DNA from: Bacteroidia bacterium
Lineage (GTDB): Bacteria; Bacteroidota; Bacteroidia; JABEUT01
Length of the DNA: 64,000 nucleotides
Direction of reading: 5' to 3'
NCBI GenBank assembly: GCA_052325425.1
Contig: JBKQUY010000025.1
Coordinates: 1,321 to 65,320, forward strand
The position numbers were made by a program, and so were the translations under genes. Shown piece after piece: positions 2,607 through 52,662 of the stretch. The notes under the pieces are model-generated. The model made no database searches. It was not told the origin of the DNA and saw only the letters and a list, made by a program, of their open reading frames with translations. How positions within the stretch are numbered: position 1 is the first letter of the stretch; each line of letters begins with the position of its first letter.

Positions 2607-3203
2607 TCAACCTAAAACCTTCAATAGCCATAAAATCAAAAGTATCAGGAGAATTACAATTAATATATCGAAGAGCAAATCAATAAACGCCCCGAGATTT
2701 AAAAGAATACCAATTAACAATATAATCACTAATATTATTAGAAGCAATAATAATAAACTCCTCCCTCCACCTCTTTCAGTAGCGTTATCGGTCATAGTTA
2801 TTGCATCAGGCACATAACTTTTAGCCTGTATCTGTGGCTCTTCACTACTTGAAATTGTATTCTTCAGGCCTTGTTTGGCAGTAAAGCTTAAAATAGCTTT
2901 GTGTTTTATTTTTTTTATAATTCCCGAAGGAGAGTTGGCAATAGGCCTATTAACAGGGTTCACATCCGCTACCTTTGTTGTCTGCGTGCCTTTAGGTTGT
3001 TCAGTATTGAGCTGTTTATTTACAGCCGACTGAACAGGTTTTGCAGCCACTTTTGATGATGCTACCGAAGGACTGCTTTTAGTATAATCAATATAATAGC
3101 CTGGATTATAGTGGCGCCTGGTTATTGAAAAATTTGTTCCGCAGGAAGAAAATATTATGCTTGCAATCAGGCAGAGTGTGCTGAAAGTAATTAGTTTTTT
3201 CAT
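2607..3203 (-). CDS. hypothetical lipoprotein/membrane protein with extremely Leu/Ile-rich C-terminal segment
   Basis: Lipoprotein-like signal MKKLITFSTLCLIASIIFSSCG. C-terminal 50 aa almost purely L/I. Confidence 0.45.
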   Translation of the reverse strand: MKKLITFSTLCLIASIIFSSCGTNFSITRRHYNPGYYIDYTKSSPSVASSKVAAKPVQSAVNKQLNTEQPKGTQTTKVADVNPVNRPIANSPSGIIKKIKHKAILSFTAKQGLKNTISSSEEPQIQAKSYVPDAITMTDNATERGGGRSLLLLLLIILVIILLIGILLNLGAFIDLLFDILIVILLILLILWLLKVLG

Positions 3204-5730: not shown

Positions 5731-6807
5731 ATGAAAAACACAACCTTAAAATTCAAACAACTGGCCTTAGCCGGTGCAATAGCCGGTTTAGGCCTTGCTG
5801 CCTGCAACTCCTCCAGTTCAGATAATGCGGCGGATAAGCAATTGCTTGGCGCGGGCTCAACATTCGGGTATCCTATTTACTCTAAAATGTTCAGCGATTA
5901 TGGAGCAGTTGCCCAGGGAACACAAACCAATTATCAATCTATCGGTTCTGGCGGTGGCATAAAACAGCTTATGAGCAAAACAGTTGACTTTGGCGCATCA
6001 GATGCTTTTTTAAGTGATGACGAAATGAGCAAAGCTCCGGCCCCCGTGGTGCAATTTCCTACTTGTTTGGGCTCTGTTGTAATCAGCTACAATATTCCGG
6101 GCAATCCTGAAATTAAAATGACGCCTGAAATTGTTGCAGGTATATTTTTAGGAACCATTACCAAATGGAATGATGAGAAAATTACTGCCGAAAACCCCGA
6201 TGCTAAACTTCCCGATATGGATATTACCGTAGCTCACAGGTCGGATGGCAGCGGTACTTCTTACATTTTCACCGACTATCTGTCAAAAGTAAGCGATGAC
6301 TGGAAATCAAAAGTTGGAATGGGTAAATCACCCAACTGGCCGGTAGGCGTTGGAGGCAAAGGTAACGAAGGTGTTGCCGGGGTTATTAAGCAAACACCCG
6401 GTGCAGTTGGATATATTGAGCTCGCTTATGCATTGCAAAACAATATGTCAGTTGCTGCATTGAAGAATGCCGCAGGCAACTACGTTAAACCGACAATTGA
6501 ATCAACCAGCCTATGCGCTAACGGAGATATACCTGCCGATACGCGTATAAGCATTGCAAATTCCAAAGTTGACCAGGGATATCCCATCAGCAGCTTTACC
6601 TGGATAATGCTTTACAAAGAGCAGAAATACGGCGACAGGACCAAAGAAAAGGCAACCAATCTTGTAAAAGAATTGTGGTGGATGATACACGATGGCCAAA
6701 AAGATTGCCAGCCTCTGAATTATGCCCCGCTTCCTCCAAAGGCAGTGGCTGCGGCCGAGGCTGTTTTAAAATCTGTTACTTACGATAATCAGCCTGTTCT
6801 TCAATAG
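5731..6807 (+). CDS. pstS: phosphate ABC transporter substrate-binding protein PstS
   Basis: Lipoprotein signal (LAACNSS). PstS hallmark GAGSTFGYPIYSKM...NYQSIGSGGGIKQ...TVDFGASDAFLSD and SGTSYIFTDYLSK. Confidence 0.9.
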   Translation: MKNTTLKFKQLALAGAIAGLGLAACNSSSSDNAADKQLLGAGSTFGYPIYSKMFSDYGAVAQGTQTNYQSIGSGGGIKQLMSKTVDFGASDAFLSDDEMSKAPAPVVQFPTCLGSVVISYNIPGNPEIKMTPEIVAGIFLGTITKWNDEKITAENPDAKLPDMDITVAHRSDGSGTSYIFTDYLSKVSDDWKSKVGMGKSPNWPVGVGGKGNEGVAGVIKQTPGAVGYIELAYALQNNMSVAALKNAAGNYVKPTIESTSLCANGDIPADTRISIANSKVDQGYPISSFTWIMLYKEQKYGDRTKEKATNLVKELWWMIHDGQKDCQPLNYAPLPPKAVAAAEAVLKSVTYDNQPVLQ

Positions 6808-24288: not shown

Positions 24289-24394
24289 CAATTTGATAAT
24301 TTGATGATTTGGAGATTTGATGATGAAAAAGGCAATATATATTGAGCTATTTGTTATTCAATTACCAAATTATCAAACTACCAAATCATCAAAT
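24289..24394. promoter_or_regulatory. ~105-bp palindromic (TTTGATGAT)n ... (ATCAAAT)n element ending 30 bp upstream of groES start; candidate heat-shock operator/5'-UTR structure
   Basis: Left arm caatttgataatttgatgatttggagatttgatgatg. Centre aaaaaggcaat.... Right arm ccaaattatcaaactaccaaatcatcaaatt (reverse complement of the left-arm family). Confidence 0.5.
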
Positions 24395-34839: not shown

Positions 34840-34912
34840 GCGGAAGTAGCTCAGTTGGTAGAGCATCAGCTTCCCAAGCTGAGGGTCGCGGGTTCGAGCC
34901 CCGTTTTCCGCT
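34840..34912 (+). tRNA. tRNA-Gly (anticodon CCC)
   Basis: Acceptor GCGGAAG/TTTCCGC. Anticodon stem TCAGC/GCTGA with loop TTCCCAA. T arm GCGGG-TTCGAGC-CCCGT. Upstream TAnnTTTG-like motif (ttaactttgtac). Confidence 0.8.
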
Positions 34913-41116: not shown

Positions 41117-41261
41117 CTCTTCATATTGCCCTGTCTAACATACGTATCCGCAACAAAGGTAAAAAGTCTGAGCAGAAAGGCCTGGTTAAATCTATTGCTG
41201 TTTTCATTCCGAATAATATTTTCATTGAGCTATTGATAAAATTTGTACTACCTTTGTCCTG

Positions 41262-41335
41262 ACTTTAGGGGTGCTGTTAAGCTGAGATTATACCCTCAAG
41301 ACCTGATGCAGGTAATGCTGCCGAAGGGAAAAAGC
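41262..41335 (+). promoter_or_regulatory. TPP (thiamine pyrophosphate) riboswitch
   Basis: ttaGGGGTGCtgttaaGCTGAGAttataCCCtcaagACCTGATgcaGGTAATgctgccgaagGGAA. Contains the conserved CUGAGA, ACCUGAU and GGUAAUACC-like elements of the THI-box. Upstream of thiS-thiC. Confidence 0.85.
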
Positions 41336-41419
41336 GAGTTCCATCTCAGTTTATTATTCATTCCTGGTTACTTTAGCTAATGGCCAATGGCTGATAGCTG
41401 ATGGTTAATACATAAAAAC

Positions 41420-41667: not shown

Positions 41668-43584
<1,917 letters not shown>

Positions 43585-43641
43585 GCCCTTTGAATAATGA
43601 ACAGCAAGGCTCTCACGAATTCCTTGAAATAAATTAGAGAT

Positions 43642-44355
43642 ATGAGTAATATCGAACAAGGAATATCGAATAATGAAATAAACAACCAGAGTGAAAACTT
43701 CGGCGTTCAGCATTCAATGTTCAATATTCGATATTCTGCCCTTAAATTAGTTGTTATATCGCCCGAAAGTACCGTTGAAAATGAAACGGAAATGGTTAAT
43801 GCCCTGTTCAAAGAAGGATTAGCATATTTTCATTTGCGTAAACCTGGTTTCACTGCTAAAGAGCAGGAGCAATATCTTTCTGAAATTGAACCAAGGTACT
43901 TGAAAAATATCACTCTGCATCAACACCACAGTATTACTTTGAATAATCAAATATCCAGGCTTCATTTTAAGGAGCATGAGAGAGAAAGCATGGATATTTC
44001 AAAGAAGAAAGCAGGTATGCTTTTTTCAAGTTCAATACATGATACTGAAAATCTCTTCTCTTGGGGAGATTCAGAGGGGCAGTCTTCTTTATGGGATTAT
44101 GTTTTCCTTGGCCCTGTATATAGCAGCATATCAAAACCGGGTTATAGAAATCAAGCTCTTGAGAATATTGTATTGGAAAAGAGAGATGGAACACCTAAAA
44201 TAATTGCAATCGGAGGAATTGATTCATCCAATGCAGAGAATGTATTAAAAAGAGGTTTTGATGGTATTGCGGTATTGGGCGCTATCTGGAATGCCACCAA
44301 CCCCCCGGTGGGAACTTTGAGCACATTTAAAACATTACAGGCAATATGCAATTAA
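43642..44355 (+). CDS. thiamine-phosphate synthase-family protein (ThiE/TenI-like, divergent)
   Basis: TIM-barrel ThiE-like motifs (YFHLRKP..., IAIGGI). Second ThiE-family gene in the operon, so possibly TenI-like. Confidence 0.6.
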   Translation: MSNIEQGISNNEINNQSENFGVQHSMFNIRYSALKLVVISPESTVENETEMVNALFKEGLAYFHLRKPGFTAKEQEQYLSEIEPRYLKNITLHQHHSITLNNQISRLHFKEHERESMDISKKKAGMLFSSSIHDTENLFSWGDSEGQSSLWDYVFLGPVYSSISKPGYRNQALENIVLEKRDGTPKIIAIGGIDSSNAENVLKRGFDGIAVLGAIWNATNPPVGTLSTFKTLQAICN

Positions 44356-45134
44356 ACAGGCCCATAGTGTTAAGTATTGCAGGATACGACCCATCAGCAG
44401 GAGCAGGGCTGCTGGCTGATATTAAAACCTTTGAGCAGCATAAAGTTTATGGTATGGGAATAATTTCATCTCTGACTTTTCAGACAGAAAATGAGTTTTT
44501 TGATGTAAAATGGATAAATGAAAAGGAGATTATTTCTCAATTAGAGAAGTATTTAAAACACTTTCAGATTAAGGTTGTAAAATTCGGGTTGATGAAAAAC
44601 TGGCGGATTTTAAATAACATAACAGGTTTAATAAAAGGCTTTAATGAAAAAATAAAAATTATTGTTGACCCGGTATTAAAGCCATCGGCAGGCAATAACT
44701 CATTTTTAGCGGGAGATAAAAAAATGATATTATCTGTATTGAATAAAATTGACCTGCTTACGCCAAACTATGATGAGGCAGTATTTTTGGGTAATAATAA
44801 AGATGGAATTGACGGGGCAAAAGAATTATCAAAATATTGCAATATATTTTTAAAAGGTGGGCATAATCCTAAAAAACCCGGTACCGATTATTTATTTACC
44901 TGTAATTGTAGAGACGCCATGCATGGCGTCTCTACAATGCATGGCGTTTCTACCATGACCCCCAATTCAACAAAAATATTTCCCAAACATGGTTCCGGCT
45001 GCGTGCTATCGGCTGCCATAACTGCAAATCTTGCTTTAGGATTTGAACTGCATGAAGCATGTAAAAATGCCAAGCAATACACTGAAAAATTTTTGAATAG
45101 CAATAAATCTTTATTGGGATACCATGTACAATAG
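44346..45134 (+). CDS. thiD: hydroxymethylpyrimidine/phosphomethylpyrimidine kinase ThiD (carries an in-frame palindromic insertion)
   Basis: VLSIAGYDPSAGAGLLADIKTF, ...HGSGCVLSAAI. About 12 extra residues (CRDAMHGVSTMHGVSTM) relative to canonical ThiD between the LFT and HG(T/S)GC motifs. Confidence 0.85.
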   Translation: MQLNRPIVLSIAGYDPSAGAGLLADIKTFEQHKVYGMGIISSLTFQTENEFFDVKWINEKEIISQLEKYLKHFQIKVVKFGLMKNWRILNNITGLIKGFNEKIKIIVDPVLKPSAGNNSFLAGDKKMILSVLNKIDLLTPNYDEAVFLGNNKDGIDGAKELSKYCNIFLKGGHNPKKPGTDYLFTCNCRDAMHGVSTMHGVSTMTPNSTKIFPKHGSGCVLSAAITANLALGFELHEACKNAKQYTEKFLNSNKSLLGYHVQ

Positions 45135-45813
45135 ATTACAATACATTTCGCAGGGTTCAACTATAAATGAGCATATCCGCAATATAAATCTTGCTTTGGA
45201 TAATGGATGCAGGTGGATACAATTACGAATTAAAGCCCCCCTTCCCCCCGAAAGGGGGATACCTGAAGGAGCAATATTTGTCCCCTCTTTGGGGGGTAGG
45301 GAGGCTGCACTTAAAGTAAAGCAATTATGCGCCTCTTATAAAGCAACATTTATTGTTAATGATTATATAGATATTGCAAAAGAGGCCGATGCTGATGGAG
45401 TCCACTTAGGGTTACAAGATAGTTCTGTTGCCAATGCAAGAGAAGTATTAGGCAGCAAGAAAATAATCGGGGGAAGCGCCAATACTTACTCCGATTGCCT
45501 TATGCGGATAAAAGAGGGCTGTAATTATATAGGCTTAGGACCTTTCAGATATACAACTACAAAAGCAAAACTCAGCCCCATACTGGGAACTGAAGGCTTC
45601 AGGAAAATCATGTCGCAGTTATCTCTTGATAAAAATGCCCCGCCGGTTTATGCAATTGGCGGCATAGTGGCAGAGGACGTTGAAGAGTTGATGGATACGG
45701 GTATATATGGGATTGCTGTTTCCGGCGTTATAACCAATGCCACAGATAAGAAACAAATTATAAAGTCATTAAATTTTAAACTGAACCAAAAGCATGTTAA
45801 CCATAGCCGATAA
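45124..45813 (+). CDS. thiE: thiamine-phosphate synthase ThiE (with GC-rich in-frame insertion)
   Basis: IQLRIK...FIVNDY...GVHLGLQD...GGIV motifs. About 13 extra residues between LRIK and FIVNDY encoded by GC-rich hairpin-forming DNA. Confidence 0.85.
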
Positions 45814-46588
45814 ATCATTTACATCAAGGTTATTTTTAGGTACCGGCAAATTTTCTTCCATGCAGGTAATGGCCGATGCAGTGCTGGCATCGGGTTCCGA
45901 ACTGGTAACTCTTGCATTAAAAAGAGTAGATACCAAAAGTCTCACCTCAAGGGGAGATTTAGAGGGGCATGCCCAGGATGACATGGTAAACTATTTAAAC
46001 CACCCTCATATACAATTGCTGCCCAATACTTCGGGAGTGAGAAATGCCAAAGAAGCTGTTTTTGCCGCGCATTTGGCCCAAGAGGCGCTTGGAACAAAGT
46101 GGCTGAAATTAGAAATCCATCCTGACCCGCGCTACCTTATGCCGGATGGGGTTGAGACGCTTAAAGCAACAGAAGAATTGGCAAAGGAAGGCTTTATCAT
46201 TTTGCCTTACATACATGCCGACCCTGTTTTATGCAAACGGCTTGAAGACGCCGGGGCCGCGGCTGTAATGCCTCTTGGCTCACCTATAGGAAGCAATAAG
46301 GGGTTAAAGACAATTGACTTTTTAGAAATTATTATAGAACAAAGTAATGTGCCGGTAATTGTTGACGCGGGTATAGGCGCACCGTCAGACGCAGCCAAAG
46401 CTATGGAAATAGGCGCCGCCGGAGTTTTAGTAAATACCGCAATTGCAGTGTCTCGTAATCCGGTAGAAATGGCATGTGCATTTAAGCAAGCTGTTGAAGC
46501 CGGAAGAACAGCCTACCTGGCCGGATTGGGAAAAATTTCAGCTACGGCATATGCATCGAGCCCGTTGACTGCTTTTCTTGATGAATAA
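45794..46588 (+). CDS. thiG: thiazole synthase ThiG
   Basis: [21 protein letters not shown]-terminus. 264 aa. Confidence 0.88.
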
Positions 46589-46675
46589 TGAATTGAAAAT
46601 GAGAAACGGTGAAAAATATATAGGCAGTGTAATGTCTCTCTCCTTTTACAAGGAGAGAGATAAAAGAGTGAGGAT

Positions 46676-47794
46676 ATGAATAATTTCGCGCAAATATTTG
46701 ACAGCTATAACTGGAAGGAAGTAGAGCAAAGCATTTACTCAAAGAGGGAAGATGATGTTTTGCGCGCATTGGTCTCCGATAAGCTAACACCCGAAGATTT
46801 TAAAGCCCTTATTTCTCCTGCCGCTGCCCCATTTTTAGAGCAAATGACATTGAAAAGCAGGCAACTTACATTAAAGCGCTTTGGAAATACCATACAGCTT
46901 TATGCGCCTATGTACCTGAGCAATGAGTGTAATAATATATGCGTCTATTGCGGATTCAGTTTCGACAATAAAATAAGGCGAAGAACCCTTACCATGGAAG
47001 AAATTTCAAAGGAAGCGGCTGCAATAAAACAAATGGGCTTCGATCATATCTTGCTTGTTACCGGGGAAGCTTTTCTTACAGTCAACCTGCCTTATTTTAC
47101 AAAAGCTATTCAAACTATCCGCCCTTTTTTCTCAAACATATCAATCGAGGTGCAGCCTTTGGAAGCAGAGGAATACGCTAAGTTGCACAACGAGGGACTT
47201 TATGCCGTTTTGGTTTACCAGGAGACATACAATAAGGAGAACTATAAAAATTATCACCCGAAAGGGAAAAAATCTAATTTTTATTACCGGCTTGATACTC
47301 CCGATAGGATTGGCCAGGCAGGCATACATAAAACAGGGCTCGGCGTTTTACTTGGCCTTGAAGACTGGCGCACCGATTCATTCTTTTGCGCCCTGCACCT
47401 CGATTATCTCACAAAAAAGTACTGGCAAACAAAGTACTCCATTTCATTCCCCCGGATACGGCCTGCAGAAGGCGTTCATATTGACAAGAAAAATATTACG
47501 GACAAAGAACTGGTGCAATTAATAACTACTTACCGTTTATTTAATGAAGATGTGGAGCTATCTATGTCAACACGCGAATCGCAGAAATTCAGAAATAATA
47601 TCATCAAATTGGGAATTACATCCATGAGCGCCGGTTCAAAGACTAACCCCGGCGGATATGCAGTTGAGCCCGAATCGCTTAAACAATTTGACATTGATGA
47701 TACCCGCACACCGCAGGAAATGGTTGAAATTATCAGGATGCAGGGATATGAGCCTGTTTGGAAAGACTGGTTTCAATTGAAAATGGAAAGTTGA
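46676..47794 (+). CDS. thiH: 2-iminoacetate synthase ThiH (radical SAM)
   Basis: CNNICVYCGF radical-SAM Cx3Cx2C motif. 372 aa. Confidence 0.85.
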   Translation: MNNFAQIFDSYNWKEVEQSIYSKREDDVLRALVSDKLTPEDFKALISPAAAPFLEQMTLKSRQLTLKRFGNTIQLYAPMYLSNECNNICVYCGFSFDNKIRRRTLTMEEISKEAAAIKQMGFDHILLVTGEAFLTVNLPYFTKAIQTIRPFFSNISIEVQPLEAEEYAKLHNEGLYAVLVYQETYNKENYKNYHPKGKKSNFYYRLDTPDRIGQAGIHKTGLGVLLGLEDWRTDSFFCALHLDYLTKKYWQTKYSISFPRIRPAEGVHIDKKNITDKELVQLITTYRLFNEDVELSMSTRESQKFRNNIIKLGITSMSAGSKTNPGGYAVEPESLKQFDIDDTRTPQEMVEIIRMQGYEPVWKDWFQLKMES

Positions 47795-47899
47795 AAATGG
47801 AGAATTATAAAAACATAATAATAATACGCCTTAGAAAGTGTTTATCACTTTCAATTTTCAATTTTCAACTTTCAATTATTGTTTTACTATTCACTACTT

Positions 47900-48610
47900 A
47901 TGCTTAGCCAGGCAGAATTTAACCGCTATACCAAACACCTTATGCTGCCTGAAATCGGGTATGATGGGCAGGTTAAAATTAAATCTGCGCGTGTGCTTGT
48001 AATTGGCGCCGGGGGCTTAGGTTGCCCTGTTTTACAATATTTAACTGCGGCAGGTATCGGAACTATAGGTGTTGCCGATTTTGATGTGGTTGATATGACA
48101 AACCTGCAAAGGCAGATTTTATATACAGATGATGATATTGGAAAACATAAAGCAGATATTGCTATAAATAAGATTTCCAAACAAAACCCCAATGTAAAAT
48201 TGATTCCTTTCAAAACTCTTATTGATGAGAGTAATGCACAGGATATTATCAGCCAATTTGATATTGTAATTGATGGCTCTGACAATTTTTTGACGAGATA
48301 TATTGTAAATGATGCTTGTGTCAGCTTAGGCAAACCGCTTGTTTATGGCAGTATTCTGGGGTTTGAGGCGCAGGTAGCGGTATTTAATAATATTGGGAGC
48401 AAAAATTTACGCGATATATTCCCCGAACCGCCAAATCCTGAAGAAGTGCCAAACTGTTCTGAGAATGGTGTATTGGGTACCGTTACGGGCATTACAGGTT
48501 GCCTGCTTACCCATGAAGCAATCAAAGTTATCTTAAATATTAGCCCTATGCATAATCAACTGCTTGTAATTGACCTGGTTAATTTTGGAGTTACAAGGAT
48601 TGATTTCTGA
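47900..48610 (+). CDS. thiF: ThiF/MoeB-family sulfur-carrier adenylyltransferase
   Basis: LSQAEFNRYTKHL..., VLVIGAGGLGCPVLQYLTAAGIG Rossmann motif. The ORF-track start at 47879 is TTG. ATG at 47900. Confidence 0.8.
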   Translation: MLSQAEFNRYTKHLMLPEIGYDGQVKIKSARVLVIGAGGLGCPVLQYLTAAGIGTIGVADFDVVDMTNLQRQILYTDDDIGKHKADIAINKISKQNPNVKLIPFKTLIDESNAQDIISQFDIVIDGSDNFLTRYIVNDACVSLGKPLVYGSILGFEAQVAVFNNIGSKNLRDIFPEPPNPEEVPNCSENGVLGTVTGITGCLLTHEAIKVILNISPMHNQLLVIDLVNFGVTRIDF

Positions 48611-49892: not shown

Positions 49893-49977
49893 GTGTAGTT
49901 AAATGTAATATTTCAAAGGTATTCTTTTTAAAGTATGATTCGACATTAATTTGATTTTTATTTTATCTTTACTCGCA

Positions 49978-52116
49978 ATGAAGCGAATTTGCAGAGTCAT
50001 ATTAATTTTTTTCTTTTTTTCTTTGAATAATTTTGCGCAGAAACACGCTATTGATTCCCTGCAAAATATTTTAAGAACTGAGAAAGAGGACACCAGTAAA
50101 GTAAATACGTTGAATACGCTGGCTGACAGGCTGCAAAGAAAGGGTAACTATGACAGTTCTATAGCTTGTGCTTACAGTGCAGAGGTTCTGGCTGAAAAAC
50201 TGGGCTTTAATAAAGGTTTAGCGAATGCTTTATTAGGTTCGGGAATTGCAAACTGGCGCAAAGGAAATTATTCCAAAGCAATGGAATATGACATTAAGGC
50301 TTTGGCAATAAACAAGGAAATTGGTAATAAAAATGGCATGGCGGCCAATTTAGCCAATCTTGCCAGTGTTTGCCGTAACCAGGGCAATTTCCCAAAAGCG
50401 CTGGAATACGATTTCAAGGCATTGGATATAAACCAGGAAACCGGAAATGAGAATGGCATTGCGATGATATTGGGGAATATTGGAAATATTTACGGAGGCC
50501 AGGGCAATTTCCCAAAAGCGCTTGAATATTTTCAGAAAGCATTGGTTATAAACCAGGGATTAGGGAATAAAGTTTTTATTGCCCTCAATTTTGGCAATAT
50601 TGGAAATGTATATGAGGAACAGGGCAATTACCCTATGGCGCTCGAATATGATGCTAAAGCTTTGGCTATTGAACAGGAAATGGGAGACAATTCGGGCATT
50701 GCGAGGAACCTTAGCAATATGGGCGTAATTTATTATGACGAAGGTAATTATTCAATGGCGCAGGAATATTATTTTAAAGCGCTGGCAATTGAAAAGGGAA
50801 TAGGAAATAAGGATGGCGTTGCCCTTAACCTGGGTAACATTGGTATTATTTATACCAAACAGAAAAGATATAAGCAGGCCATCGCTTACCTTGATTCATC
50901 TCTCCGGTTTTCTGAAGGCACAGGAGATAAGGATGTAATAAAGAGCGCTTACAAAGGCTTGGCTGAATTAGACAGTGCTACAGGTAATTTTAAAACTGCG
51001 TATGATGATTATAAAAAGTTTATCGCTTACCGCGACAGTTTAATTAATGAAGCGAATACCAAAAGAACTGTCCAGGCAGAGATGAATTACGAATTTGAAC
51101 AAAAACAGGCCGTTGAGAAAGCAGAACAAGATAAAAAAGATGCCATAGCTGAGGCAGAAAAGCGAAAACAGAAAATTATTATCTGGTCAGTAGTAAGCGG
51201 GTTGCTGTTGGTTGTTGTTTTCGCGGGGTTTATTTACCGTTCTTTACGCATAACCCGTAAACAAAAGAACTTGATTGAAAGGCAGCGGGAGAAAGTTGAA
51301 ACCCAGAAAACACTTATCGAACAGCAAAAGGCATTAGTAGAAGAAAAGAATAAAAATATCCTGGACTCGATTAATTACGCTAAAAGCCTGCAGGATGCCA
51401 TATTACCACCAATAAGCCTTATTACAAAATATCTTCCTGAATCCTTTGTGCTATATAAGCCTAAAGACATAGTGGCAGGTGATTTCTATTGGATGGAACG
51501 GGTAGAGACGCCATGCATGGCGTCTCTGCTGATTGCTGCGGCAGATTGCACAGGGCATGGTGTACCCGGGGCCCTTGTGAGTGTGGTATGTTCCAATGCC
51601 CTTAACAGAACTGTAAAGGAGTTTAAGATTACCGAACCGGGAAAAATATTGGATAAAGTAAGGGAACTTGTCCTTGAAACATTTGAAAAAAGCGAAAATA
51701 ATGTACAGGATGGAATGGATATTTCCTTAGCCTCCCTTAGTCTCTCCGAGGGAGGGATACAAATACAATGGAGCGGAGCATACAATCCTTTGTTGTATGT
51801 GCATAATAATGAAATTAAAGAGATAGCGCCTGATAAGCAGCCTATTGGCAAAACAGACAATCCTAAACCGTTTATTACAAATTTGTTACATGTAAATAAA
51901 GGCGATACATTGTATTTATTTACTGATGGCTATGCTGACCAGTTCGGAGGCCCGAAAGGAAAGAAGTTTAATTACAAACAGCTCCAGGAAAAGTTATTAT
52001 CTATAAGCCATCAGCCTTTAGCAGAACAAAAACAGGCACTTGAAAAAGCGTTTGAAAAATGGAAAGGCGAATTGGAGCAGGTGGACGATGTATTAATTAT
52101 TGGCATAAGAGTTTAG
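49978..52116 (+). CDS. TPR-repeat, single-pass membrane sensor with C-terminal PP2C/SpoIIE-family serine phosphatase domain (carries the 24-bp palindromic insertion)
   Basis: Signal peptide (MKRICRVILIFFFFSLNNFAQ). About 9 TPR units (GN.......Y..KAL.I). TM helix IIIWSVVSGLLLVVVFAGFIY. Coiled-coil. PP2C-like ...GDFYW....DCTGHGVPGAL...TDGYADQ. Confidence 0.8.
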   Translation: MKRICRVILIFFFFSLNNFAQKHAIDSLQNILRTEKEDTSKVNTLNTLADRLQRKGNYDSSIACAYSAEVLAEKLGFNKGLANALLGSGIANWRKGNYSKAMEYDIKALAINKEIGNKNGMAANLANLASVCRNQGNFPKALEYDFKALDINQETGNENGIAMILGNIGNIYGGQGNFPKALEYFQKALVINQGLGNKVFIALNFGNIGNVYEEQGNYPMALEYDAKALAIEQEMGDNSGIARNLSNMGVIYYDEGNYSMAQEYYFKALAIEKGIGNKDGVALNLGNIGIIYTKQKRYKQAIAYLDSSLRFSEGTGDKDVIKSAYKGLAELDSATGNFKTAYDDYKKFIAYRDSLINEANTKRTVQAEMNYEFEQKQAVEKAEQDKKDAIAEAEKRKQKIIIWSVVSGLLLVVVFAGFIYRSLRITRKQKNLIERQREKVETQKTLIEQQKALVEEKNKNILDSINYAKSLQDAILPPISLITKYLPESFVLYKPKDIVAGDFYWMERVETPCMASLLIAAADCTGHGVPGALVSVVCSNALNRTVKEFKITEPGKILDKVRELVLETFEKSENNVQDGMDISLASLSLSEGGIQIQWSGAYNPLLYVHNNEIKEIAPDKQPIGKTDNPKPFITNLLHVNKGDTLYLFTDGYADQFGGPKGKKFNYKQLQEKLLSISHQPLAEQKQALEKAFEKWKGELEQVDDVLIIGIRV

Positions 52117-52278: not shown

Positions 52279-52662
52279 ATGGAAGCAAACATTACTGAAA
52301 GTACCTTAAAAACTCCCTTTATTAAATTTGACCCGACTGCCGGCAAGCTTGAAATTAAGGGGAGGTCAATTTCCGAAAACTCCCTGGAGTTTTTCAGTAA
52401 CCTGATAGACAACCTTAATAAATATGCTGTTTCTCCTACAGCTCCTACCCAGGTTGATATTCAACTGGAATACATCAATACCGCTTCTTCCAGGTGCATA
52501 CTTGAGATATTCAGATGCTTAGAGAATATTCATAAGAAAAATGGCAACGTAAATATTAATTGGCATTACGAAGAAGACGATGAAAATATGTGCGAAGTAG
52601 GCGAAGGCTACAAGGCAATTATAAATGTGCCTTTTAATATTACCTGCCTGGGGTTAAATTAA
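52279..52662 (+). CDS. SiaC-family regulatory phosphoprotein (DUF1987), predicted partner-switch substrate of the upstream PP2C
   Basis: 127 aa. Conserved TP.I.FD...G.L...G.S.ENS.EFF, LEYINTASS and NWHYEEDDENM motifs align with Pseudomonas SiaC (…LRLLYLNTSS…RWHYDRRNE…). Confidence 0.65.
   Translation: MEANITESTLKTPFIKFDPTAGKLEIKGRSISENSLEFFSNLIDNLNKYAVSPTAPTQVDIQLEYINTASSRCILEIFRCLENIHKKNGNVNINWHYEEDDENMCEVGEGYKAIINVPFNITCLGLN

What the first reader, a model, noticed from the sequence alone, without database searches (positions are those of the whole stretch)
51504..51527. Second copy of the 24-bp palindrome AGAGACGCCATGCATGGCGTCTCT inside the PP2C sensor gene
Identical core to the thiD insert. 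It encodes ...VETPCMASL..., immediately N-terminal to the PP2C metal-binding D.TGHG motif. Exact reuse of a 24-bp GC-rich palindrome in two unrelated AT-rich coding sequences is extremely unlikely by chance (4^24). This points to an active or recently active insertion or targeting process.
Basis: seen in the sequence. Interest (0 to 1): 0.7.

Follow-up and report, generated by a model that had tools for sequence, protein, structure and literature searches.

The report
Mobile hairpin repeat inside two genes
The 24-base palindrome is real and is one copy of a small hairpin-forming repeat (a "double-foot" REP element) linked elsewhere to its own tyrosine transposase-like gene; here it sits in frame in a phosphatase gene and a thiamine gene, which is a known kind of element and not a new one.

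Summary
AGAGACGCCATGCATGGCGTCTCT occurs exactly twice in the window, at 51504-51527 in a TPR-SpoIIE/PP2C gene and at 44910-44933 in thiD, with 0 copies expected by chance.

The full unit is a 28-bp perfect palindrome, GTAGAGACGCCATGCATGGCGTCTCTAC. Its 22-bp core occurs in more than 118 stretches of independent assemblies. These are mostly Bacteroidota, plus Ignavibacteria, Calditrichota, Balneolia, Fibrobacteria and Shapirobacteria.

In about a quarter of these loci the palindrome lies next to or in frame inside a gene for a REP-associated tyrosine transposase (RAYT). That gene carries the motifs NHFH, WQ and YIxNNP. This matches the published "double-foot" REPs of TnpA_REP subclass 2.4 (RAYT group 4), which are known to insert in frame into their own transposase gene and into other genes.

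The closest thiD and PP2C homologues found lack the segment. In both proteins it falls where homologues vary; in PP2C a model puts it at a beta-hairpin tip. No RAYT gene lies in the window, and current activity is not shown.

Verdict: a new member of a known kind, of moderate-to-low interest. Three points remain open: the core is identical across phyla, 28 bp is not a multiple of three, and the empty thiD site resembles one arm of the repeat.

The parts
51502..51529 (.). REP copy in the PP2C gene: GTAGAGACGCCATGCATGGCGTCTCTgC. It is the 28-bp unit with the left foot GTAG intact and the right foot CTGC instead of CTAC. The perfect 24-bp palindrome is 51504-51527. It is read as V-E-T-P-C-M-A-S-L.
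   Evidence: sequence; 28-bp consensus from 136 copies; hairpin dG -12 kcal/mol as DNA and -23.6 as RNA, z -4.5 and -5.8
49951..52116 (+). Host gene: TPR-repeat sensor with a C-terminal SpoIIE/PP2C phosphatase domain. The REP-coded residues form the tip of the beta-hairpin just before the AAADCTGHG motif.
   Evidence: Pfam TPR_12 7.8e-47, SpoIIE 3e-18; homologues read ERV-GDTI-LIAAAD; the loop is hypervariable in length; AlphaFold model pLDDT 89.8: strands E81-89 and E94-103 of the 291-residue fragment flank the turn TPCM
44908..44935 (.). REP copy in thiD: the perfect 28-mer GTAGAGACGCCATGCATGGCGTCTCTAC. The palindrome extends to 34 bp at 44905-44938. In a different frame from the PP2C copy it is read as (C)RDAMHGVST.
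   Evidence: (dG -20.2 as DNA and -30.6 as RNA for 44900-44960)
44937..44954 (+). Half-unit direct repeat ATGCATGGCGTtTCTACc, a tandem copy of 44919-44936. It gives the duplicated peptide MHGVST-MHGVST. The same half-unit duplications occur next to copies in other genomes.
   Evidence: L108, L048, L038, L003; L038 RAYT reads RRDAMHGVSMHGVST
44346..45134 (+). Host gene thiD (hydroxymethylpyrimidine/phosphomethylpyrimidine kinase) in a thi operon behind a TPP riboswitch. It carries 12 extra residues (36 bp) relative to all 40 homologues aligned.

Best explanation
The palindrome is a copy of a REP-type element (repetitive extragenic palindrome) of the 'double-foot' kind. It has a 20-bp perfect stem (AGACGCCATG/CATGGCGTCT), a GTAG tetranucleotide at the 5' end and its complement CTAC at the 3' end. 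Either strand therefore forms the same hairpin with a 5' GTAG foot.

Such elements are the cognate DNA of REP-associated tyrosine transposases (RAYT, also called TnpA_REP). These are HUH/Y1 single-strand DNA endonucleases related to the IS200/IS605 transposase. The likely mechanism is inferred by analogy with E. coli TnpA_REP and IS608: the enzyme recognises the folded hairpin and its GTAG foot on single-stranded DNA, for example at a replication fork. It then cleaves and rejoins the DNA, and so adds or removes copies without a target-site duplication.

The unit is short and has no stop codon in two of the three frames in either orientation. Copies that land in tolerant surface loops and keep the reading frame can therefore persist inside genes. 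Here they persist in the beta-hairpin before the PP2C metal-binding aspartate and in thiD between the DYLF strand and the KHGSGC motif.

Shown: the repeat family, its boundaries, its association with RAYT genes in other genomes, the absence of the segment from the closest homologues found, and the lack of a target duplication. Inferred: that a RAYT moved these two copies, when it did so, and how the frame was kept.
For: (1) Boundaries. 136 copies from 118 loci give a sharp 28-bp consensus, with G/T/A at positions -3/-2/-1 in 224-238 of 272 arms. Beyond that the flanks are close to random.

(2) RAYT link. A recalled E. coli YafM sequence, and then an HMM built from the hits, find RAYT-like ORFs in about 29 of the 118 loci. 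33 of 143 copies lie in or beside these ORFs. The ORFs match NCBIfam NF047646 'REP-associated tyrosine transposase' at E 1.6e-17 and 5.7e-16. Their only PDB hit is 4ER8, TnpA_REP.

(3) The ORFs carry NH[FI]H, WQ and YIxNNP. [quoted passage not shown] This is what Quentin et al. 2018 (PMC6006769) describe for subclass 2.4: double-foot REPs with 5' GT[AG]G and 3' C[TC]AC, inserted in frame in tnpA_REP, abundant in Cyanobacteria and Bacteroidetes and scattered in other phyla.

(4) No direct repeat of 4 bp or more flanks any of 87 full copies, as expected for HUH enzymes.

(5) Variants keep perfect symmetry through paired changes..GC[A]ATGCAT[T]GC.. 7 times and ..GC[G]ATGCAT[C]GC.. 4 times.

(6) Other in-frame hosts are confirmed by Pfam: an MmeI-type enzyme, MetH, type I restriction-modification M/S and R subunits, LeuRS, a Reg_prop sensor, a BspA LRR protein and an arylsulfotransferase.

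(7) Empty sites. The thiD ortholog L119 (82% nucleotide identity) and all 40 aligned homologues lack the 36 bp. PP2C homologue L120 has GGGGATACTATT where the window has the 24-mer.
Against: No RAYT-like ORF is found in the 64-kb window, and the source genome could not be identified. A cognate enzyme in this organism is therefore unproven.

The RAYT-like proteins score below the NCBIfam curated cut-off (59-64 bits against 80) and give no Pfam Y1_Tnp hit at E 0.01.

A 28-bp unit cannot by itself keep a reading frame. The two window copies correspond to net changes of +36 bp and +12 bp, so simple cut-and-paste of the unit does not explain them.

No RAYT has been shown experimentally to transpose a REP.

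All copies were found by an exact-match search, which biases the apparent conservation upward.
Confidence: 0.8

Rival explanations
1. The copies are spread by recombination, not transposition. Gene conversion, template switching or annealing of REP single strands at sites that already resemble one arm would do this, with the RAYT playing no direct part in these two events.
For: The empty thiD site in L119 reads AATGGGGTTTCGACAAT (N G V S T I), which is 13 of 16 identical to the right arm ATGGCGTCTCTACAAT. In PP2C, 24 bp replace 12 bp instead of being added. Half-unit tandem duplications are common next to copies. These are the products expected from strand switching within a palindrome.
Against: The evidence rests on a single empty site with arm similarity. 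The PP2C empty site shows only weak similarity. Flanks of 87-136 copies are otherwise close to random. The strong physical link to RAYT genes suggests an enzyme-driven process.
Confidence: 0.12
2. The two copies are old, vertically inherited relics that no longer move in this lineage. They are kept unchanged because the hairpin is useful or harmless, for example as an mRNA structure or a protein loop.
For: No RAYT gene is in the window. Copies sit at sites with homologous flanks in different genomes whose flanks have diverged: L013/L054 at 92% and 79% flank identity, and also L023/L091 and L015/L089. The core is identical across phyla although the RAYTs are only 42-76% identical.
Against: The closest thiD ortholog found (82% nucleotide identity) lacks the segment, so the insertion is younger than that split. 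The window covers only 64 kb of the genome, so the absence of a RAYT here says little. This rival concerns timing and not the nature of the element.
Confidence: 0.3
3. The palindrome is a functional DNA or protein motif selected in place. It could be a binding site or a restriction-modification-related site, since it holds two inverted CGTCTC sites and an ATGCAT core, or it could be a selected peptide.
For: The sequence contains recognisable restriction-type words (read directly from the sequence). Several host genes in other genomes are restriction-modification genes.
Against: The two window copies are read in different frames, VETPCMASL and RDAMHGVST, so no common peptide is selected. Copies lie in unrelated genes and in intergenic DNA. 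The conserved ends are GTAG/CTAC, as in REPs. The RAYT association is unexplained by this idea.
Confidence: 0.03
4. It is an assembly chimera or an adapter-like contaminant.
For: The only support is that it is a GC-rich perfect palindrome in AT-rich DNA.
Against: Both copies keep long ORFs open and fall in regions where homologues vary in sequence or length. The same core occurs in more than 118 stretches from many laboratories. These include the cultured isolates Emticicia sp. SJ17W-69, Pollutibacter soli JS81 and Adhaeribacter soli MA2, a complete 4.27-Mb chromosome and a 4.1-Mb contig. It also lies inside a conserved gene family.
Confidence: 0.01

Closest known systems
'Double-foot' REP sequences of TnpA_REP subclass 2.4 (= RAYT group 4 of Bertels et al. 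2017), described by Quentin et al. 2018, BMC Genomics 19:475 (PMC6006769)
   Same: Both have a hairpin with 5' GT[AG]G and 3' C[TC]AC. Both have the transposase motifs NH[IFV]H, WQ and YIxNNP. [quoted passage not shown] Both are found in Bacteroidetes and scattered in other phyla, at low to moderate copy number.
   Different: This 28-mer was not found in the searchable literature (searched with an 18-base core). Here the same core is seen in at least six phylum-level groups, including Shapirobacteria. In the window itself only the repeat is present, not the transposase gene.
GTAG-tagged REPs, including intragenic REPs (Di Nocera, De Gregorio and Rocco 2013, BMC Genomics 14:522, PMC3733652)
   Same: Both are 20-40-bp GC-rich stem-loops with a terminal GTAG. 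Both form sub-families with complementary stem changes and occur as clusters and dimers. Both are occasionally found inside genes for known proteins.
   Different: In that survey the GTAG is an unpaired tag at one end, and GTAG families were not reported in Bacteroidetes (only CGTC families were). Here GTAG is paired with CTAC and the whole unit is a perfect palindrome with no loop.
Rickettsia palindromic elements (RPE; as cited in PMC3733652)
   Same: Both are palindromic repeats inserted in frame in genes that likely still encode functional proteins.
   Different: In PMC3733652 the short RPE-4 and RPE-6 repeats are classed as CGTC-type, which apparently lack a dedicated transposase, and they are described for Rickettsia. 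The element here is a GTAG type linked to RAYT genes.
REPINs and RAYT groups 2 and 3 of Pseudomonas and Enterobacteria (Bertels and Rainey 2011, PMC3116915)
   Same: Both are non-autonomous hairpin repeats thought to be copied by a RAYT that is typically present in about one copy per genome.
   Different: REPINs are doublets of two REPs with a spacer. They are extragenic, reach tens to hundreds of copies per genome and are described as mostly vertically inherited within lineages. Here the unit is a single 28-bp palindrome, often intragenic, and shares its core across phyla.
IS200/IS605 transposition (TnpA of IS608 and ISDra2; summarised in PMC6006769)
   Same: Both involve an HUH/Y1 enzyme that acts on hairpins in single-stranded DNA and leaves no target-site duplication.
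   Different: IS200/IS605 elements carry their transposase between two different imperfect hairpins and insert next to a fixed 4-5-nt target. Here the hairpin alone is dispersed and only a weak T-Y preference precedes GTAG.

Membership tests
Double-foot REP of RAYT/TnpA_REP subclass 2.4 | A short (about 20-40 bp) GC-rich sequence able to form a stable hairpin | tested here: met
   The unit is 28 bp with a 12-15-bp stem. dG is -12 to -20 kcal/mol as DNA and -24 to -31 as RNA, and no shuffle folds as well.
Double-foot REP of RAYT/TnpA_REP subclass 2.4 | [quoted passage not shown] | tested here: met
   The consensus of 136 copies is GTAG...CTAC. The thiD copy is perfect. The PP2C copy has GTAG on the left and CTGC on the right, which is one mismatch.
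Double-foot REP of RAYT/TnpA_REP subclass 2.4 | Many dispersed copies within a genome | tested here: inconclusive
   There are 2 copies in the 64-kb window. A whole-genome count for the source organism was not possible.
Double-foot REP of RAYT/TnpA_REP subclass 2.4 | Physical association with a RAYT gene, either flanking it or inserted in frame inside it | tested here: met
   About 29 of 118 loci in other genomes show this, and 33 of 143 copies lie in or beside the ORF. It is not met inside the window itself, where no RAYT ORF was found.
Double-foot REP of RAYT/TnpA_REP subclass 2.4 | The associated protein has the subclass 2.4 signature: HuH = NH[IFV]H, W motif = WQ, Y motif = YIxNNP, and a variable insert between beta3 and alphaC | tested here: met
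   The alignment of 17 ORFs shows MPNHFH/NHIH, WQ and YI(I/x)NNP in most ORFs, with a few variants. The region after the HUH strand is hypervariable. NCBIfam NF047646 matches at E 1e-16 to 1e-17 but below the curated cut-off. Pfam Y1_Tnp gives no hit. The only PDB hit is 4ER8.
Double-foot REP of RAYT/TnpA_REP subclass 2.4 | The RAYT binds and cleaves the REP hairpin on single-stranded DNA | not testable with these tools
   This needs biochemistry. It has been shown only for E. coli TnpA_REP, as cited in PMC6006769 and PMC3479197.
DDE-type MITE (miniature inverted-repeat transposable element) | Terminal inverted repeats flanked by a target-site duplication; length 70-300 bp | tested here: not met
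   The unit is 28 bp. None of 87 full copies has a direct repeat of 4 bp or more at its flanks.
REPIN (REP doublet) | [quoted passage not shown] | tested here: not met
   Most copies are single 28-bp units, and the window copies are single. Quentin et al. note that a double foot could arise by central deletion of an inverted REP dimer.

The most novel reading that the evidence does not exclude
This particular REP is unusual within its class in three ways. First, one invariant 28-mer is shared by at least six phylum-level groups, while the RAYT genes that carry it have diverged to 42-76% identity. Second, it routinely settles in frame inside genes, including leuS, metH, thiD and its own transposase gene. 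This suggests that a RAYT gene with its REP embedded in the ORF forms a compact self-contained unit. Third, integration into genes may be assisted by similarity between the target and a repeat arm, which would be a mode of spread not described for REP/RAYT systems.
Probability: 0.2. Interest if true: 0.6.

Novelty: new member of a known kind. Interest (0 to 1): 0.33.

Why it matters
The result explains an odd GC-rich palindrome in two unrelated genes. It adds about 4 residues to a phosphatase and 12 to a thiamine kinase without breaking them. Annotators should expect peptides such as RDAMHGVST or VETPCMASL in Bacteroidota proteins to be repeat-derived and not functional motifs.

For people who study REP/RAYT systems, this family offers a convenient case. 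It is a short, perfectly symmetric substrate with a core shared across phyla. It has many natural in-frame insertions and filled/empty site pairs, which could be used to test how RAYTs choose targets and whether they really move REPs.

Tried and rejected
Literature: a full-text search for the 18-base core of the palindrome found no paper.

Mobile vectors: the exact 28-mer is absent from IMG/VR viral contigs. A 30-nt query found nothing in PLSDB plasmids or INPHARED phages. No vector for horizontal spread was identified.

RNA families: Rfam gives nothing at either copy, only a tRNA and a TPP riboswitch elsewhere in the window. In ten other loci the only match was one tRNA near a copy.

Protein families: Pfam does not recognise the RAYT-like ORFs; NCBIfam and PDB were needed.

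Target-site duplication: none was found, which rejects a DDE-type MITE.

Related palindromes in the window: GAGACG-N(4-20)-CGTCTC finds only the two copies. Half-site searches find only these copies and the thiD half-unit.

Source organism: the window's own proteins are not in the protein collection. The best thiD hit is 78% identical and the best PP2C hit about 72-75%. Strain-level polymorphism could therefore not be checked, and I ran no further search on it.

RAYT similarity: nearest neighbours are at most 75% identical and partly follow taxonomy. I rejected the idea of a very recent cross-phylum sweep.
Full report
**1. The observation.** The sequence AGAGACGCCATGCATGGCGTCTCT is present at 51504-51527 and again at 44910-44933. 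There are no further matches even with three mismatches allowed, and 100 dinucleotide-preserving shuffles gave none. It is a perfect palindrome. The first copy lies in ORF 49951-52116 (+), a TPR-repeat protein with a C-terminal SpoIIE/PP2C domain (Pfam SpoIIE 3e-18, TPR_12 7.8e-47). There it is read as V-ETPCMASL, just before LIAAADCTGHG. The second copy lies in thiD (Phos_pyr_kin 1.3e-44; ORF 44346-45134). It is read in another frame as CRDAMHGVST and is followed by an 18-bp half-unit repeat that gives MHGVST twice. The window is about 37-47% G+C, so this GC-rich palindrome stands out.

**2. The real unit and its distribution.**
- Aligning 136 copies with their flanks shows a sharply bounded 28-bp unit, GTAGAGACGCCATGCATGGCGTCTCTAC. 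G, T and A at positions -3, -2 and -1 occur in 224-238 of 272 arms. Beyond that the composition is close to random, apart from a weak T at -2 and a pyrimidine at -1 relative to GTAG.
- The carriers are mostly Bacteroidota of many orders: Chitinophagales, Cytophagales, Saprospiraceae, Flavobacteriales and Bacteroidales.
- They include the cultured isolates Emticicia sp. SJ17W-69, Pollutibacter soli JS81 and Adhaeribacter soli MA2. They also include a complete 4.27-Mb chromosome and a 4.1-Mb contig.
- Other carriers are Ignavibacteria, Calditrichota, Balneolia, Fibrobacteria and five separate Shapirobacteria MAGs.
- This distribution excludes an assembly or adapter artefact.

**3. The link to a transposase family.**
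- I searched all stop-to-stop ORFs of the loci with a recalled E. coli RAYT (YafM) sequence. It hit ORFs in about 21 loci, all at the position of the palindrome.
- An HMM built from 17 of these ORFs finds them in about 29 of the 118 loci and finds none in the window. 33 of 143 copies lie in or beside such an ORF.
- The ORFs are uninterrupted proteins of roughly 175-260 residues (one reaches about 340). A typical sequence reads ..KYRIPSARL..YF(V/I)TICT..VMPNHFHGIIIIGENEYN-[variable]-NKFGPQSKNLASIIRGFKS..WQPRFHDHIIR..YIxNNP...
- The palindrome lies in frame inside them. It is usually just after the HUH strand and sometimes at a second site after FGEI. It is read either as RDAMHGVST or as VETPCMASL. 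Copies also flank some of the genes, for example in L113, L107, L057 and L022.
- NCBIfam NF047646 'REP-associated tyrosine transposase' matches at E 5.7e-16 and 1.6e-17, below its curated cut-off. Pfam gives nothing. The only PDB hit is 4ER8, E. coli TnpA_REP, aligned over the HUH, WQPRF..H.IR and YI..NP segments.

**4. Comparison with the literature.**
- Quentin et al. 2018 (PMC6006769) define TnpA_REP subclass 2.4, equal to RAYT group 4 of Bertels et al. 2017.
- Its motifs are NH[IFV]H, WQ and YIxNNP, with a highly variable insert between beta3 and alphaC.
- Its REPs are 'double-foot', carrying 5' GT[AG]G and 3' C[TC]AC.
[quoted passage not shown] - Bertels et al. (PMC5581495) report group 4 in 61 species of 17 classes, with moderately frequent flanking 16-mers.
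- Di Nocera et al. 2013 (PMC3733652) describe GTAG-tagged REPs, sub-families with complementary stem changes, clusters, and REPs inside genes for known proteins.
- Every sequence-level feature I could test fits this description. The element is therefore a member of a known kind. The particular 28-mer was not found in the searchable literature.

**5. Evidence that the two window copies were acquired.**
- All 40 closest thiD homologues lack 12 residues exactly here.
- The nearest one, whose DNA is L119 (82% nucleotide identity), reads ..TTTATTAATGGGGTTTCGACAATAATGGAA.. where the window has 36 extra bases. The boundaries are ambiguous because of the half-unit repeat; one parsimonious placement is 44907-44942.
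- Most PP2C homologues shown read ERV-GDTI-LIAAAD or a close variant, whereas the window reads ERV-ETPCMASL-LIAAAD.
- At the DNA level, homologue L120 has GGG GAT ACT ATT where the window has the 24-mer. This is a net gain of 12 bp, not a simple insertion.
- An AlphaFold model of the phosphatase domain (pLDDT 89.8) places the repeat-coded residues at the tip of a beta-hairpin. These are strands 81-89 and 94-103 of the 291-residue fragment, just before the metal-binding aspartate.
- The same loop varies widely in length among homologues. In two of them (L121, L122) it carries unrelated hairpin-pair sequences. It is thus a permissive site.

**6. How general in-frame residence is.** Of the 110 copies not associated with a RAYT ORF, 18 lie in stop-to-stop ORFs of 200 residues or more. 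Pfam confirms real hosts: an MmeI-type enzyme, MetH, type I restriction-modification M/S and R subunits, leucyl-tRNA synthetase (in a Shapirobacteria MAG), a Reg_prop sensor, a BspA-type LRR protein and an arylsulfotransferase. Two of the three frames are open in either orientation. The third contains the TAG of GTAG, and copies read in that frame have a mutated foot.

**7. Mechanism.** The following points are shown.
- The unit folds into a strong hairpin on either strand.
- Variant families keep perfect symmetry through paired changes: GC[A]ATGCAT[T]GC 7 times and GC[G]ATGCAT[C]GC 4 times.
- There is no target-site duplication of 4 bp or more in 87 copies.
- Half-unit tandem duplications are frequent.

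These points fit an HUH/Y1 enzyme that acts on a hairpin in single-stranded DNA with a GTAG foot, as established for E. coli TnpA_REP and IS608 (summarised in PMC6006769). They do not fit a DDE-type MITE. It remains an inference that a RAYT moved these two copies. The window holds no RAYT gene, and I could not identify the source genome.

**8. What remains unexplained.**
- Twenty-eight is not a multiple of three. The net changes here are +36 and +12 bp, so in-frame copies must come from imprecise events filtered by selection or from a recombination-like route.
- The empty thiD site (AATGGGGTTTCGACAAT, N-G-V-S-T-I) is 13 of 16 identical to the repeat's right arm. This could be chance, a remnant, or a sign of homology-assisted integration. 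The PP2C empty site shows only weak similarity.
- The RAYTs that carry the identical core are only 50-76% identical to each other (median 59%), and 42% for the Shapirobacteria one. Nearest neighbours partly follow taxonomy. The shared core therefore looks like constraint and not a recent sweep. Because the search required exact matches, conservation is overstated.
- Copies with homologous flanks in different genomes (L013/L054, L023/L091, L015/L089) show that some copies persist for long periods. A perfect copy is therefore not evidence of recent activity.

**9. Verdict.** The element is a double-foot REP of the RAYT subclass 2.4 system, which makes it a new member of a known kind. Interest is modest. 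The cross-phylum core, the frequent residence inside genes and the frame puzzle are worth a specialist's attention. None of them requires a new category.

Noticed in passing
window 41257-41347 (+) and 41749-48610: A TPP riboswitch (63.1 bits) precedes a thi operon: thiC, a TMP-TENI gene, thiD, thiE, thiG, a thiH-like radical SAM gene and thiF. The thiD repeat therefore sits inside a riboswitch-controlled operon.
   Followed up: partly
window 52279-52662 (+): A SiaC-family regulatory phosphoprotein gene (Pfam 4.9e-39) lies directly downstream of the TPR-SpoIIE phosphatase gene. This suggests a SiaA/SiaC-like phosphatase-substrate pair.
   Followed up: no
L121 (PP2C homologue P0134) and L122 (P0125), loop between GDFYW and DCTGHG: The same phosphatase loop carries unrelated inserts made of two hairpins each. 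L121 has TCTCTCCCAAGGGAGAGA ... CCTTCTCCCTTGGGAGAAGG. L122 has CCCTCCAAAGGAGGG ... CCCTCCTTTGGAGGG. They look like other REP/REPIN-like families that landed in the same permissive loop.
   Followed up: partly
L050 1928-2048: Four repeat cores at exactly 33-bp spacing lie inside a 185-residue stop-to-stop ORF of a Saprospiraceae MAG. This in-frame tandem array encodes an 11-residue repeat.
   Followed up: no
L108 ~300-375, L048 ~3040-3105, L038 ~5925-5970: Tandem repeats of the half-unit (for example GTAGAGACGCCATGCAT repeated three times) lie next to full copies. This is the same architecture as the MHGVST-MHGVST duplication in the window's thiD.
   Followed up: partly
L049 1041, L059 2606, L118 4131 (one Balneolia MAG); also L076, L106, L066: In these copies the palindrome continues 9-14 bp beyond the 28-mer, for example GGCACGCCCTGTT-GTAG...CTAC-AACAGGGCGTGC. 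This is either a lineage-specific longer REP or an insertion into pre-existing hairpins. 14 of 89 full copies extend 3 bp or more, against about 1-2 expected.
   Followed up: partly
L099 4127-6556 (-), L107, L019, L043, L055, L079, L110: Five Candidatus Shapirobacteria (CPR) MAGs carry the same core. One copy lies in frame in leucyl-tRNA synthetase. One MAG (L107) has a divergent RAYT-like ORF only 42% identical to the Bacteroidota ones.
   Followed up: partly
L018 3015-3036 and 3056-3127 (-): A repeat copy lies about 20 bp from the 3' end of a tRNA gene.
   Followed up: no
window 24291-24386: An AT-rich imperfect palindrome of about 96 bp (two 50-nt arms, 72% complementary) built from ATTTGAT-like words. 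I did not examine it.
   Followed up: no
window 34840-34912 (+): A tRNA gene (Rfam 68.4 bits).
   Followed up: no
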